From positions 96,001 through 160,000 of the IMG/VR virus record IMGVR_UViG_3300021254_000020: a stretch of 64,000 nucleotides of DNA; one strand, given 5' to 3'. The notes below the pieces were generated by a model. That model was not told where the DNA came from. It saw nothing but the letters and a program-made list of their open reading frames with translations, and did no database searches. The stretch is from a virus (Duplodnaviria; Caudoviricetes). The position numbers and the translations under genes are program-made. The stretch's first letter is position 1; each line of letters starts with the position of its first letter. Shown here in pieces: positions 25,405-27,046 of the stretch.

Positions 25405-25421
25405 GATATATCATCTCCTTT

Positions 25422-25441
25422 CACTACTATAATATATCATC
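25422..25441 (-). promoter_or_regulatory. Early-type promoter motif
   Basis: Minus strand GATGATATATTATAGTAGTG. Confidence 0.55.
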
Positions 25442-25504: not shown

Positions 25505-25828
25505 TTACAATTCTAATAATGCTTCAATCTGATCTATGTATTCAATCTGCATATCACTAGGAATTACTGCATATGTAAGAAGAGGATCTTTAGCCTTATC
25601 ATCTACCTCTTCAATAGTTCTAGCACAGTAGAGAGTCATAACCCCACCTTGAGACCTATCTTGTACAAACCCAATATGGATTTTCTTATCCTTAAATAGA
25701 TCTACCATAGTAGCCCAAGCCATAGCCTGTTCTTGGTTAATTCCCTTACGTTCTTCGATATGAGAGATGAAATATCCTCCTTCTTTGTTACTAGAATCCT
25801 TCTTAATACCAATCAGTTTGTAGTTCAT
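25505..25828 (-). CDS. Hypothetical protein, paralog of 24048-24365
   Basis: See paralog; AGGAGG SD. Confidence 0.7.
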   Translation of the reverse strand: MNYKLIGIKKDSSNKEGGYFISHIEERKGINQEQAMAWATMVDLFKDKKIHIGFVQDRSQGGVMTLYCARTIEEVDDKAKDPLLTYAVIPSDMQIEYIDQIEALLEL

Positions 25829-25879
25829 ATTATCAACCTCCTATATATCTATACTTAATGGTTATTGAAAAAATCAAAA

Positions 25880-25910
25880 TAGAAAAGGGTAGGCATGGAA
25901 GCCTACCCTA
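25880..25910 (-). terminator. Intrinsic terminator ending the tRNA-like transcript
   Basis: AGGGTAGGC-TTCCAT-GCCTACCCT-TTTCTATTTT on minus strand. Confidence 0.75.
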
Positions 25911-25941
25911 AACTATTTTTTAGAAGTTTTATGATGCCAAG

Positions 25942-26023
25942 TGACGGAACTACTCAGACTCGCACTGAGATTCTCAGGGAAAAATTGGCAAAACCTGAGC
26001 TTCTACTATTGAATTATAGTTCC
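25942..26023 (-). ncRNA. tRNA-like element with an expanded 15-nt anticodon loop containing TTGCCAA and a TGCGAGT T-loop
   Basis: Acceptor GGAACTA/TAGTTCC, D-arm TTC/GAA, anticodon stem TCAGG/CCTGA, T-stem CTCAG/CTGAG; ends GTCA rather than NCCA. Confidence 0.7.
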
Positions 26024-26150
26024 ATGAATCTAGGACTCGAACCTAGATTAGTTTATATCAATGGGAGCTTCCAACCCATTTGATATCGGAGGTGGGAGAG
26101 GTAGAAAAACATATAAAAAGCCCTCTCCCATAGCAATAGGATTCTACTGC

Positions 26151-26170
26151 TACATGTAATATATATTGAC
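26151..26170 (-). promoter_or_regulatory. Early-type promoter driving a non-coding hairpin/tRNA-like transcript
   Basis: Minus strand GTCAATATATATTACATGTA contains TATATTAC. Confidence 0.55.
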
Positions 26171-26192
26171 TCTCGAAAATGAGGGGAATATC

Positions 26193-26231
26193 AAAAAAGA
26201 AGAAGAATAGGTGATCAGACTATCTTCTTCT
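26193..26231 (-). terminator. Intrinsic terminator of the large ncRNA candidate
   Basis: AGAAGAAGATAG...CTATTCTTCTTC followed by TTTTTT on minus strand. Confidence 0.7.
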
Positions 26232-26235
26232 CATT

Positions 26236-26627
26236 CTCGGACGTCCCAAATATGACCATGTATCCCAAGCCTACCCGACACAACAGAGTTATCTCTGTCT
26301 GTTGCCGGCTTAATTTATAGACAAAAGAACATCCGAACTAGTTAAGGAATTGTAACCAGGTGACTAATTTGTTTTAATCAATCCCTTCATACTTCCAGTA
26401 CTACTGTATAGCATGGCCCGCACCATTCGCGGTTCACGGAATCAAACTAGTGCACCAGTCTTGGGTTCCTGGCACTTTGTCTTTTGGACTCATCTCTGCA
26501 CCTACAAGAAGGTCTCTGGTAATTATAAAATAATACTCGAGGATAGACTACTTGAAACCGCATCCTCATGAACGCATATTCATCTCTCCGTATGAATATA
26601 TCAAGAATTACATCAATCTCCCCGAGT
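26236..26627 (-). ncRNA. Candidate large structured non-coding RNA (~390 nt)
   Basis: Closing helix CTCGG/CCGAG, more than 10 internal complementary pairs, own promoter motif (26627-26638) and terminator, no SD-led ORF. Confidence 0.65.
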
Positions 26628-26638
26628 ACTATATTGTC
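26627..26638 (-). promoter_or_regulatory. Late-type promoter GACA-N6-TA placing +1 at the 5' end of the ncRNA
   Basis: Minus strand GACAATATAGTA followed directly by CTCGGGG. Confidence 0.6.
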
Positions 26639-26662
26639 ACTAGTATATTTATTTTTTAAATA

Positions 26663-26747
26663 TGGTGCGCCCGGAGGGGGTCGAACCCTCACTCACTTAA
26701 GAATACGCTCCTAAGGCGTACGTGTATACCTATTTCACCACGGGCGC
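26663..26747 (-). tRNA. trnL: tRNA-Leu (anticodon UAG), CCA encoded
   Basis: GCGCCCG acceptor, TACGC-CTTAGGA-GCGTA anticodon arm, long variable region, GAGGG-TTCGACC-CCCTC T-arm, ACCA end. Confidence 0.95.
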
Positions 26748-26756
26748 AACTACTAG

Positions 26757-26768
26757 TACTATAGTGTT
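26757..26768 (-). promoter_or_regulatory. Late-type promoter AACA-N6-TA upstream of tRNA-Leu
   Basis: Minus strand AACACTATAGTA about 10 nt before the tRNA 5' end. Confidence 0.6.
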
Positions 26769-26954: not shown

Positions 26955-27046
26955 ATTTTCACCTCCCATTAACTGCTTCCACAGTAATAATATGCAATCG
27001 AAATTAAAATTACCCTACTCGTAATTGAGTAGGGTAATGGATTATT

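What the first reader, a model, noticed from the sequence alone, without database searches (positions are those of the whole stretch)
25880..26170. Early non-coding transcript of stacked hairpins ending in an aberrant tRNA
Seen on the minus strand: promoter motif TATATTAC, hairpin TAGCAGTAG/CTATTGCTA, hairpin TGGGAGAGG/CCTCTCCCA, hairpin ATATCAA.TGGG/CCCATTGATAT, an isolated T-arm mimic AATCTAGG-TTCGAGT-CCTAGATT (26027-26049), then a cloverleaf (25942-26023) with intact stems but a 15-nt anticodon loop TTTTGCCAATTTTTC, T-loop TGCGAGT and a GTCA end, then a terminator. Intact stems argue against simple decay. Inference: a tRNA mimic, for example a decoy for anticodon nucleases, a T-box or synthetase ligand, or a non-ribosomal aminoacyl donor.
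Basis: partly seen in the sequence, partly recalled or inferred. Interest (0 to 1): 0.7.

Follow-up and report, generated by a model that had tools for sequence, protein, structure and literature searches.

The report
Conserved tRNA-shaped RNA that cannot decode
A rumen giant phage carries, downstream of a real leucine tRNA gene, a tRNA-shaped RNA gene with a normal tRNA body but a 14-16-base anticodon loop; close relatives keep it unchanged, so it is probably a working tRNA look-alike, though an inert leftover is not excluded and its role is unknown.

Summary
Hairpins, a free-standing T-arm hairpin, an 78-nt cloverleaf (25946-26023, minus strand) and a terminator all sit where stated. The 281-nt stretch folds far better than shuffles (z -5.55). 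The cloverleaf is the best sub-threshold tRNA candidate in the 266-kb genome.

The window belongs to a distant AR9/PBS1-type jumbo phage from rumen metagenomes. I recovered the locus from 15 further contigs, giving seven sequence variants in three lineages. All keep the same oddities:
- a loop core TTTTGCCAATTT inside a 14-16-nt loop;
- T-loop TGC instead of TTC;
- one G in the D-loop;
- no CCA and a variable discriminator.
The cloverleaf and T-arm are the most conserved non-coding segments (0.90-1.00 identity, against 0.69-0.79 for the real tRNA-Leu). Cloverleaf stems show no compensatory changes.

The "early promoter" is not supported. The phage has about 52 copies of its own early-type motif, and the candidate misses three conserved positions and is absent from relatives.

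Best reading (about 45%): a selected, non-decoding tRNA mimic derived from a shrinking tRNA cluster. Main rival (about 30%): an inert relic. This scan noted comparable anticodon-less tRNA shapes in other phages.

The parts
26153..26167 (-). It resembles the AR9-type early consensus but is probably not a promoter.
   Evidence: Misses three conserved positions of the phage's own roughly 52-site motif. Not conserved in L031/L032. TATATTAC is not enriched. No sigma-70-like site lies here.
26131..26152 (-). Hairpin 1 (TAGCAGTAG / CTATTGCTA, loop AATC). A variable module.
   Evidence: Folds. Relatives L031/L032 carry a different, longer hairpin here; segment identity is 0.47-0.58.
26093..26130 (-). 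Hairpin 2 (TGGGAGAGG / CCTCTCCCA) with a 20-nt U-rich loop.
   Evidence: 100% of cells are paired in 6 sequences, with one A-U to G-C compensatory change in L031.
26054..26087 (-). Hairpin 3 (ATATCAA.TGGG / CCCATTGATAT).
   Evidence: One pair changed on both sides (U-A in window/L027; G.U or G-C in the other lineages); 91% of cells are paired.
26027..26049 (-). T-arm hairpin with canonical T-loop TTCGAGT and a closing G-C pair. The surviving T arm of a neighbouring, otherwise lost tRNA.
   Evidence: The 21-nt core ATCTAGGTTCGAGTCCTAGAT is identical in all 16 contigs. In L031/L032/L034 it closes a weak second cloverleaf. The same 21-mer is the T arm of an ordinary tRNA in one bacterial MAG.
25946..26023 (-). 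tRNA-shaped cloverleaf, 78 nt. U8, A14, A15-U48, A21, G53-C61, U54-A58 and C56 are kept. G55 replaces U55, the D-loop has a single G, and the anticodon loop has 15 nt.
   Evidence: ARAGORN with inserts allowed, 25943-26024. The cloverleaf evaluates at -18.1 kcal/mol, within about 1 kcal/mol of the MFE. Identity to other lineages is 0.90-0.96. 19 of 21 pairs never vary.
25979..25993 (-). Enlarged anticodon loop TTTTGCCAATTTTTC.
   Evidence: Loop length is 14, 15 or 16 nt in different variants, with an invariant core TTTTGCCAATTT. The same variants recur in independent assemblies.
25910..25945 (-). 3' trailer (GTCAC TTGGCAT ... A-rich). No CCA. The discriminator position varies (G / T / C).
   Evidence: TTGGCA is complementary to the loop's TGCCAA, but a 6-mer match is not significant, and the geometry of an L-shaped tRNA argues against pairing (inference).
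25876..25909 (-). Intrinsic terminator (9-bp GC-rich stem plus T-run) ending the unit.
   Evidence: The stem is kept in all lineages, with wobble-compatible changes.
26663..26747 (-). Context: genuine tRNA-Leu(UAG) with encoded CCA, preceded by AACA-N6-TA.
   Evidence: ARAGORN and Rfam, 56.2 bits. The AACA-N6-TA motif at 26757-26768 is conserved in relatives and fits AR9's late consensus (PMC5312081).
26188..26640 (-). Context: about 430-nt structured RNA between tRNA-Leu and this unit, ending in a terminator at 26191-26232.
   Evidence: 33 of 119 predicted pairs show compensatory double changes in 5 sequences. No Rfam family matches.
25505..25828 (-). Context: downstream 107-aa gene of unknown function. 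It was used to find relatives.
   Evidence: No Pfam or PHROG hit. The AlphaFold model has low confidence, pLDDT 49.6.

Best explanation
The cloverleaf is a tRNA-derived gene that has lost its decoding and charging ends but keeps an intact tRNA body. Selection retains it as a non-decoding tRNA look-alike. It lies in the remains of a phage tRNA cluster.

Inferred mechanism:
1. The unit is transcribed together with, or just after, the upstream tRNA-Leu and large-RNA transcripts. Those have AR9-type late (AACA-N6-TA) and early-type promoters. Transcription stops at the terminator at 25876-25909.
2. The acceptor/T-arm stack and the elbow are intact, and U sits at -1. Host RNase P and RNase Z should therefore excise an RNA of about 78-80 nt.
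3. That RNA cannot read codons. Its loop is 14-16 nt, and EF-Tu and ribosome use is unlikely with G55 and no G18G19. It would act in trans by occupying something that recognises tRNA bodies or U-rich anticodon loops, for example a host tRNA-directed defence nuclease or a processing or modifying enzyme.

Shown: the structure, its tRNA signature positions, and its retention with the same aberrations across lineages and samples.
Inferred: transcription, processing, and the decoy role.
For: Cloverleaf geometry and significance:
-.
- Core tRNA tertiary positions are kept and invariant: U8, A14, A15-U48, A21, G53-C61, U54-A58, C56. This was read from the sequence.

Retention across relatives:
- The same aberrant features occur in all seven variants from 16 contigs in many independent samples. 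L046 is included; there the downstream gene is only 53% identical, yet the unit is nearly unchanged.

Conservation:
- Cloverleaf 0.90-0.96 and T-arm 1.00.
- Compare tRNA-Leu 0.69-0.79, large RNA 0.60-0.77, tail 0.87, and four-fold sites 0.63-0.69 over five genes, or 0.67-0.69 over the three well-conserved orthologues.

Pattern of variation:
- Only 2 of 9 variable sites fall in the 42 stem positions, and one of those is a C-G to U.G change.
- Indels occur only in the loop's T-runs.
- T-loop changes in L032 (G57A, G59A) keep R57 and A58.

Context:
- Neighbouring hairpins 2 and 3 and the upstream large RNA show compensatory changes, so this region encodes working RNAs.
- There is a precedent for tRNAs with TGC in the T-loop being kept out of translation: S. 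aureus non-proteogenic tRNAGly (PMC7826273).
Against: - No RNA evidence was obtained.
- No promoter of its own could be identified.
- No compensatory change supports any cloverleaf stem.
- Lineage L032-34 has an A.A mismatch in the acceptor stem.
- Thermodynamic ensembles do not consistently favour the cloverleaf.
- The block from hairpin 2 to the 107-aa gene is generally little diverged: four-fold sites of that gene are 0.81-0.89 identical. Judged against this local rate, the extra conservation is only modest, roughly p 0.04 by my count of 9/99 versus about 21/115 variable sites.
- The element is confined to a narrow clade. It is absent from relatives at about 60% RNAP identity.
- The cluster is visibly losing tRNAs. 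tRNA-Leu(UAA) is present in L032/L034 and absent here, and the neighbouring tRNA is reduced to a T arm.
- No partner protein was found: no TROVE, CCA-adding enzyme or PTH2.
Confidence: 0.45

Rival explanations
1. It is an inert relic: a pseudo-tRNA left in a decaying phage tRNA cluster. It looks conserved only because the sampled relatives share a recently exchanged, little-diverged block. Its stems persist simply because too little time has passed.
For: - The relative G001 has a 7-tRNA cluster, G002 has none, and this clade has 1-2 plus fragments.
- The neighbouring tRNA is reduced to a T arm here and is only a weak cloverleaf in L031/L032.
- An HNH endonuclease gene is inserted beside tRNA-Leu in L027/L028.
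- Local four-fold identity is 0.81-0.89.
- The cloverleaf shows no covariation and has one disruptive acceptor change.
- The element has a narrow distribution.
Against: - The cloverleaf and T arm are the best-conserved non-coding pieces of the locus. They are better conserved than the terminator and UTR in the same block.
- Variable sites avoid stems.
- Adjacent segments (hairpin 1 and the roughly 70-nt stretch before the T arm) have diverged beyond easy alignment, at 0.44-0.58.
- The unit is unchanged next to a 53%-identical allele of the downstream gene.
Confidence: 0.3
2. It is a cis-acting processing and stability signal. The tRNA shape serves only as an RNase P/Z cutting site ('punctuation'). 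Cutting gives the upstream hairpin RNA a defined, hairpin-protected 3' end and separates it from the terminator. The excised cloverleaf itself is waste.
For: - The acceptor/T-arm stack is intact, with U at -1 in all lineages.
- Upstream hairpins 2 and 3 are conserved with compensatory changes, so there is an upstream RNA to mature.
- The T-arm hairpin sits 3-6 nt before the cut site.
- By general knowledge, tRNA-like elements mark 3' ends in MALAT1/mascRNA, and tRNA spacers act as small RNAs in E. coli.
Against: - A mere cutting signal would not need an invariant loop core (TTTTGCCAATTT) or an invariant D-arm.
- No processing data exist.
Confidence: 0.13
3. It is a two-state RNA switch. The anticodon stem and the T stem have the same sequence (CTCAG/CTGAG). 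The RNA could therefore toggle between a cloverleaf and one long hairpin in which loop UUUGC pairs with T-loop GCRAR. This double constraint would freeze the sequence.
For: - RNAalifold prefers the extended hairpin on the alignment.
- Two 5-bp stems being identical has a chance of about 1e-3.
- The only stem change (C to U in L031) is tolerated in both folds.
- G57A and G59A in L032 turn two U.G pairs into U-A pairs in the alternative fold.
- In L032 the ensemble favours the alternative outer helix, 0.95.
Against: - In window and L031 the cloverleaf is 3-4 kcal/mol better than this alternative.
- No ligand, and no regulated downstream event, is evident. The downstream gene has its own AACC-N6-TA element after the terminator.
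- The pattern is equally consistent with a plain cloverleaf.
Confidence: 0.07
4. It is a chargeable tRNA used outside the ribosome, as a non-ribosomal aminoacyl donor like the staphylococcal cell-wall tRNAGly.
For: - The TGC T-loop triplet and the missing G18G19 match the staphylococcal non-proteogenic tRNAGly signature (PMC7826273).
- GCC lies within the loop motif TTGCCAA.
Against: - CCA is not encoded, while the phage's real tRNAs encode it.
- The discriminator differs between lineages: G, T, C.
- The acceptor pairs are G1-C72, G2-C71 and A3-U70, not the bacterial Gly set (general knowledge).
- Loop length varies from 14 to 16 nt.
- The phage has no CCA-adding enzyme.
Confidence: 0.03

Closest known systems
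Canonical elongator tRNA (Rfam RF00005), including phage-encoded tRNAs
   Same: Cloverleaf order and stem lengths. U8, A14, R15-Y48, A21, G53-C61, U54-A58 and C56 are present. It lies in a phage tRNA cluster on the gene strand.
   Different: The anticodon loop has 14-16 nt. G55 replaces U55, and there is a single D-loop G. There is no CCA and the discriminator varies. It scores below the detection limits of Rfam and default ARAGORN.
Staphylococcal non-proteogenic tRNAGly (NP1-3; PMC7826273)
   Same: TGC (or TGT) instead of TTC in the T-loop, and an altered D-loop. These features keep a tRNA out of EF-Tu and ribosome use.
   Different: Those tRNAs have normal 7-nt UCC anticodon loops and Gly identity elements, are charged, and are used by Fem transferases. 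None of that is seen here.
tRNA-like non-coding RNAs: bacterial YrlA/Y RNAs (PMC4201824), and mascRNA of MALAT1 (general knowledge)
   Same: A tRNA-shaped module that is not used for decoding and is expected to be handled by tRNA-processing enzymes.
   Different: The phage has no Ro60/TROVE gene, no Rfam match, and no long Ro-binding stem. Here the anticodon arm is kept but its loop is enlarged.
Phage T4 RNAC and RNAD, small stable RNAs of unknown function (PMC9697503; their location in the T4 tRNA region is from my own knowledge)
   Same: Non-tRNA structured RNAs in a phage that also encodes tRNAs, classed as late RNAs, with function still unknown.
   Different: There is no sequence or structural relation, and expression of the present unit has not been shown.
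tRNA pseudogenes and wreckage left by homing-endonuclease traffic in phage tRNA clusters (e.g. T4 SegB; general knowledge)
   Same: The cluster is shrinking, a neighbour is truncated to its T arm, and an HNH gene is inserted next to tRNA-Leu in L027/L028.
   Different: The element is kept with the same sequence across lineages and is better conserved than its surroundings.

Membership tests
Canonical decoding tRNA | Cloverleaf with 7-bp acceptor, 3-4-bp D, 5-bp anticodon and 5-bp T stems and correct spacers | tested here: met
   ARAGORN drawing and manual numbering. All stems are Watson-Crick apart from an A.G at the outer D-stem position.
Canonical decoding tRNA | 7-nt anticodon loop with U33 and purine 37 | tested here: not met
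   The loop has 14-16 nt in all variants.
Canonical decoding tRNA | T-loop T54-Psi55-C56 and D-loop G18G19 | tested here: not met
   TGC is present in all variants, and the D-loop is AATAGTA or AATAGCA.
Canonical decoding tRNA | Conserved discriminator plus CCA end (encoded in this phage's real tRNAs) | tested here: not met
   GTCA, TTTC or CATC follow the acceptor stem. tRNA-Leu ends in ACCA.
Canonical decoding tRNA | Detected by the Rfam tRNA model or by default ARAGORN | tested here: not met
   No hit even at E<=10. ARAGORN finds it only at a 94% threshold with an 8-nt 'intron'.
Recent tRNA pseudogene | Relatives carry a canonical tRNA at the orthologous site | tested here: not met
   All 16 contigs carry the same aberrant form.
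Recent tRNA pseudogene | Substitutions fall on stems and loops alike, at the neutral rate | tested here: inconclusive
   2 of 9 variable sites lie in 42 stem positions. Identity is 0.90-0.96, against a local four-fold identity of 0.81-0.89 and a wider one of 0.63-0.69.
YrlA / bacterial Y RNA | Ro60 (TROVE) gene in the same genome, and a Ro-binding stem | tested here: not met
   PF05731 is absent from G000. No Rfam match.
Non-proteogenic aminoacyl-donor tRNA | Chargeable acceptor end with fixed identity elements | tested here: not met
   The discriminator varies and there is no CCA. Aminoacylation itself is not testable with these tools.
AR9-type early (virion RNAP) promoter | Match to the phage's own conserved early motif, conserved in relatives | tested here: not met
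   About 52 genomic sites of ATATAYTAT(A)-N4-TG. The candidate differs at 3 conserved positions and is absent in L031/L032. The AR9 consensus is from PMC5312081.
Intron-containing tRNA | Group I intron or bulge-helix-bulge intron in the anticodon loop | tested here: not met
   The insert is only 7-9 nt. There is no Intron_gpI hit.
Phage attachment site in a tRNA gene | Integrase in the genome, and identity to a host tRNA 3' half | tested here: not met
   No PF00589 in G000. The 21-mer occurs in one unrelated MAG only.

The most novel reading that the evidence does not exclude
The cloverleaf and its companion T-arm hairpin are a dedicated phage counter-defence RNA. It would be a tRNA-shaped decoy whose enlarged U-rich loop soaks up a host anticodon-loop nuclease or another tRNA-body-binding immune factor. 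It might switch between cloverleaf and extended-hairpin forms, because its anticodon and T stems are identical in sequence. It would belong to a wider, undescribed class of anticodon-less tRNA shapes in phage tRNA clusters.
Probability: 0.12. Interest if true: 0.7.

Novelty: new variant of a known kind. Interest (0 to 1): 0.4.

Why it matters
Phage tRNA genes are now known to counter tRNA-cleaving host defences. A tRNA body kept by selection after it has lost both its decoding end and its charging end would point to a use of tRNA shape that has nothing to do with translation.

The locus is also a compact example of a phage 'RNA island': a tRNA, a covarying RNA of about 430 nt, hairpins and a tRNA mimic. 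It sits in an uncultured lineage of AR9-like jumbo phages from the rumen.

If it is only a relic, it still documents how phage tRNA clusters shrink. It also warns that intact stems alone do not prove function.

Tried and rejected
- **Phage collection, near and distant DNA search.** No match.
- **IMG/VR scans.** Queries with the flanking proteins and an exact 24-mer found no close relative.
- **Covariance model R1.** No second copy in the genome and no convincing homologue in the 60%-identity relatives. The best outside hit is simply 'T arm of tRNA-Asn plus tRNA-Ser' in G001.
- **Parent isotype.** Alignment to 13 tRNAs gave z <= 2.3. My idea that it derives from tRNA-Gly(GCC), because TTGCCAA is that loop, rests on memory and stays untested.
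- **Loop-to-trailer pseudoknot (TGCCAA with TTGGCA).** A 6-mer match is not significant, and the trailer as a whole is conserved. An L-shaped body could not bring the two together.
- **Antisense target of the loop in the phage genome.** Only chance 10-11-mers were found.
- **Coding explanation.** The plus-strand 62-aa ORF (25895-26083) is broken by the 1-nt loop indels in relatives.
- **Partner proteins.** TROVE, CCA-adding enzyme, tyrosine integrase and PTH2 are all absent.
- **The 107-aa neighbour.** No family hit. Its model has pLDDT 49.6, so no fold search was attempted.
- **Antiterminator pairing between hairpin 2 and the terminator.** Not conserved in L031.

Full report
**What the genome is.**
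- The window is bases 96001-160000 of a 266,420-bp IMG/VR virus record with 36% G+C.
- It encodes split multisubunit RNA polymerase pieces, gyrase and an NAD-dependent ligase.
- Its RNAP beta piece is 31% identical to those of Bacillus phages AR9 and PBS1, and 29% identical to Staphylococcus S6-type jumbo phages. It is therefore a distant, uncultured member of that group.
- Contig names and run accessions of the relatives point to rumen metagenomes.

**Checking the observation.**
- hairpin 1, 26131-26152;
- hairpin 2, 26093-26130;
- hairpin 3, 26054-26087;
- a hairpin with an 8-bp stem and the canonical T-loop TTCGAGT, 26027-26049;
- a cloverleaf, 25946-26023;
- an intrinsic terminator, 25876-25909.

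The 281-nt stretch folds to -89.2 kcal/mol against -63.9 +/- 4.6 for shuffles (z -5.55).

Default ARAGORN and Rfam find only tRNA-Leu(UAG) at 26663-26747. Rfam's tRNA model does not report the cloverleaf even at E<=10. When short loop inserts are allowed, the cloverleaf is the first additional hit in the whole genome as the threshold is lowered. It appears at 94%, and nothing else appears until 90%. Shuffled genomes give 0.45 such hits per genome, so about 7e-4 are expected by chance in this 830-nt gap on this strand.

Reading the sequence with tRNA numbering:
- Kept: U8, A14, A15-U48, A21, G53-C61, U54-A58 and C56.
- Altered: G55 instead of U55, and one G instead of G18G19.
- The loop has 15 nt.
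- GTCA follows the acceptor stem instead of N-CCA.

**The promoter claim.**
- TATATTAC is not enriched (21 and 18 copies, about 16 expected).
- AR9's published consensus sequences are AAATATATATTAT-(6N)-G for early promoters and AACA-(6N)-TA/G for late ones (PMC5312081).
- This phage has about 52 sites of a closely similar motif of its own, ATATAYTAT(A)-N4-TG(A).
- The candidate upstream of the unit (CAATATATATTAC atgtag C) differs at three of the most conserved positions.
- In lineages L031/L032 it is replaced by GATACATGTAG.
- No sigma-70-like site is present either.
- Good early-type sites do exist upstream of the 63-aa ORF (26979-26997, conserved in relatives) and upstream of the HTH gene (25417-25438).
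- AACA/GACA-N6-TA elements precede tRNA-Leu (26757-26768) and the large RNA (26627-26638), and are conserved.
- How the unit itself is transcribed therefore remains open. Read-through of the 26191-26232 terminator, or an unrecognised promoter near the conserved TACATGTAG, are the two options.

**Relatives.**
- Phage-collection and IMG/VR searches found only 60%-identity relatives (G001-G004). These lack the element.
- G001 has a 7-tRNA cluster including a Leu(UAG) that is 74% identical to ours. G002 has no tRNA.
- The 107-aa gene just downstream led to close relatives. A metagenome pattern scan added L034, the 63-aa ORF added six more contigs, and an exhaustive profile search added L046.
- In all, 16 contigs give seven variants of the T-arm-plus-cloverleaf core in three lineages: window/L027/L040, L031, and L032/L034/L046.

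Every variant keeps the following:
- the 21-nt T-arm core, unchanged;
- the TGC T-loop (TGCGAGT or TGCAAAT, so R57 and A58 are kept);
- the GG-less D-loop;
- a loop of 14, 15 or 16 nt around an invariant TTTTGCCAATTT;
- a non-CCA 3' end with a different discriminator in each lineage.

Identical variants recur in independent assemblies, so the length differences are real.

**How strong is the case for selection?**

| Segment | Identity between lineages |
|---|---|
| tRNA-Leu (which evolves by compensatory changes) | 0.69-0.79 |
| Upstream large RNA | 0.60-0.77 |
| Hairpin-1 region | 0.47-0.58 |
| Hairpins 2-3 | 0.84-0.93 |
| T arm | 1.00 |
| Cloverleaf | 0.90-0.96 |
| Trailer + terminator + UTR | 0.87-0.88, with many indels |

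- Four-fold degenerate sites average 0.63-0.69 over several genes. In the adjacent 107-aa gene alone they are 0.81-0.89.
- The unit therefore lies in a generally young, probably exchanged block.
- L046 shows such exchange directly. Its unit is almost identical to L032's, but its downstream gene is only 53% identical.
- Against the wider genome the cloverleaf is clearly constrained. Against its own block the excess is modest.
- Variable sites avoid stems (2 of 9 in 42 stem positions, one of them C-G to U.G), and indels occur only in the loop's T-runs.
- However, 19 of 21 cloverleaf pairs never vary, and one acceptor pair is broken (A.A) in L032-34. There is thus no covariation for or against the cloverleaf.
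- Hairpins 2 and 3 each have one pair changed on both sides. The upstream RNA of about 430 nt has 33 of 119 pairs with double changes. The neighbourhood therefore does encode functional RNAs.

**The T-arm 'mimic'.**
- In L031, L032 and L034, about 70 extra nucleotides precede it. Together with it, they give a weak second cloverleaf, again with a long loop.
- In the window that part is deleted.
- The covariance model's best outside hit is the arrangement 'T arm of tRNA-Asn, short spacer, tRNA-Ser' in G001.
- The exact 21-mer is an ordinary tRNA T arm in one MAG.
- The hairpin is best read as the surviving T arm of a neighbouring tRNA. Its perfect conservation beside a fast-changing stretch is unexplained.

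**Alternative fold.** The anticodon stem and the T stem share the sequence CTCAG/CTGAG.
- RNAalifold therefore prefers one long hairpin, in which loop UUUGC pairs with T-loop GCRAR.
- By energy, the cloverleaf is 3-4 kcal/mol better in window and L031, and about equal in L032.
- This could be a switch or a coincidence. It would also explain the frozen sequence.

**Function.**
- A 14-16-nt loop of variable length cannot present an anticodon the way ribosomes require (established knowledge).
- G55 and the missing GG parallel the staphylococcal tRNAGly species that are excluded from translation (PMC7826273).
- The absent CCA and the drifting discriminator argue against charging.
- The acceptor/T-arm stack and the elbow are intact. 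These are what RNase P, RNase Z and other tRNA-body binders recognise.
- I therefore favour a processed, non-decoding tRNA look-alike that acts by being bound (45%).
- The rivals are an inert relic (30%), a pure processing signal (13%), a two-state switch (7%) and a non-ribosomal aminoacyl donor (3%).
- No partner was found. TROVE, CCA-adding enzyme, PTH2 and integrase are absent, and the 107-aa neighbour has no recognisable family or confident fold.
- No Rfam family matches any part of the unit.

**Comparison and novelty.**
- It fails several defining tests of a decoding tRNA.
- It is not a YrlA, a tmRNA, an intron-bearing tRNA or an attachment site.
- It works most like the known tRNA-shaped non-coding RNAs, and it resembles the anticodon-less tRNA shapes this scan has noted in other phage tRNA clusters (unverified notes).
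- I class it as a new variant of a known kind, of moderate interest, pending RNA evidence.

Noticed in passing
window 26188-26640 (-): A structured RNA of about 430 nt lies between tRNA-Leu and the unit. It is preceded by GACA/AACA-N6-TA and ends in a strong terminator. 33 of 119 predicted pairs show compensatory double changes in 5 sequences, and no Rfam family matches.
   Followed up: partly
whole genome G000; in the window e.g. 29006(-), 35878(-), 44787(-), 55739(-), 26979-26997(-), 25417-25438(-): There are about 52 copies of a conserved motif ATATAYTAT(A)-N4-TG(A). It resembles AR9's early promoter consensus and is probably this phage's virion-RNAP promoter set.
   Followed up: partly
G000:C1:165397-165482 (-), outside the window: The genome's only other ARAGORN tRNA is 'Phe(GAA)', but it has a class-II body: a long variable arm and a Ser/Leu-like D-loop. 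It also has an A1-U72 pair and no encoded CCA. This is an odd pairing of body and anticodon.
   Followed up: no
G000:C1:165150-165340 (-), outside the window: Several copies of AAAYTGATAAC-like repeats lie in the non-coding stretch downstream of that tRNA. They may be protein-binding iterons.
   Followed up: no
L027 and L028, 1548-2063: A 171-aa HNH endonuclease gene sits just upstream of tRNA-Leu, where the window has the 63-aa ORF. This is homing-endonuclease traffic at the tRNA locus.
   Followed up: no
L032 1981-2068; L034 1794-1881: These lineages carry a second tRNA, Leu(UAA), directly after Leu(UAG). It is cleanly absent from the window and from L031, which shows ongoing tRNA loss or gain in the clade.
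   Followed up: partly
L046 1-560: The unit and the 5' UTR are almost identical to L032, but the downstream gene is only 53% identical to the 107-aa gene. A recombination breakpoint lies at about the start codon.
   Followed up: partly
window 25505-25828 (-): The 107-aa gene has unusually low synonymous divergence: four-fold identity 0.81-0.89, against 0.55-0.67 in the neighbouring 105-aa and 270-aa genes. It has no detectable family.
   Followed up: partly
window 26663-26747 (-) versus L031 1996-2080 and L032 1893-1978: The genuine tRNA-Leu(UAG) differs by 21-31% between lineages. It has many paired changes in its anticodon, variable and T stems, a useful contrast to the frozen cloverleaf.
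   Followed up: partly
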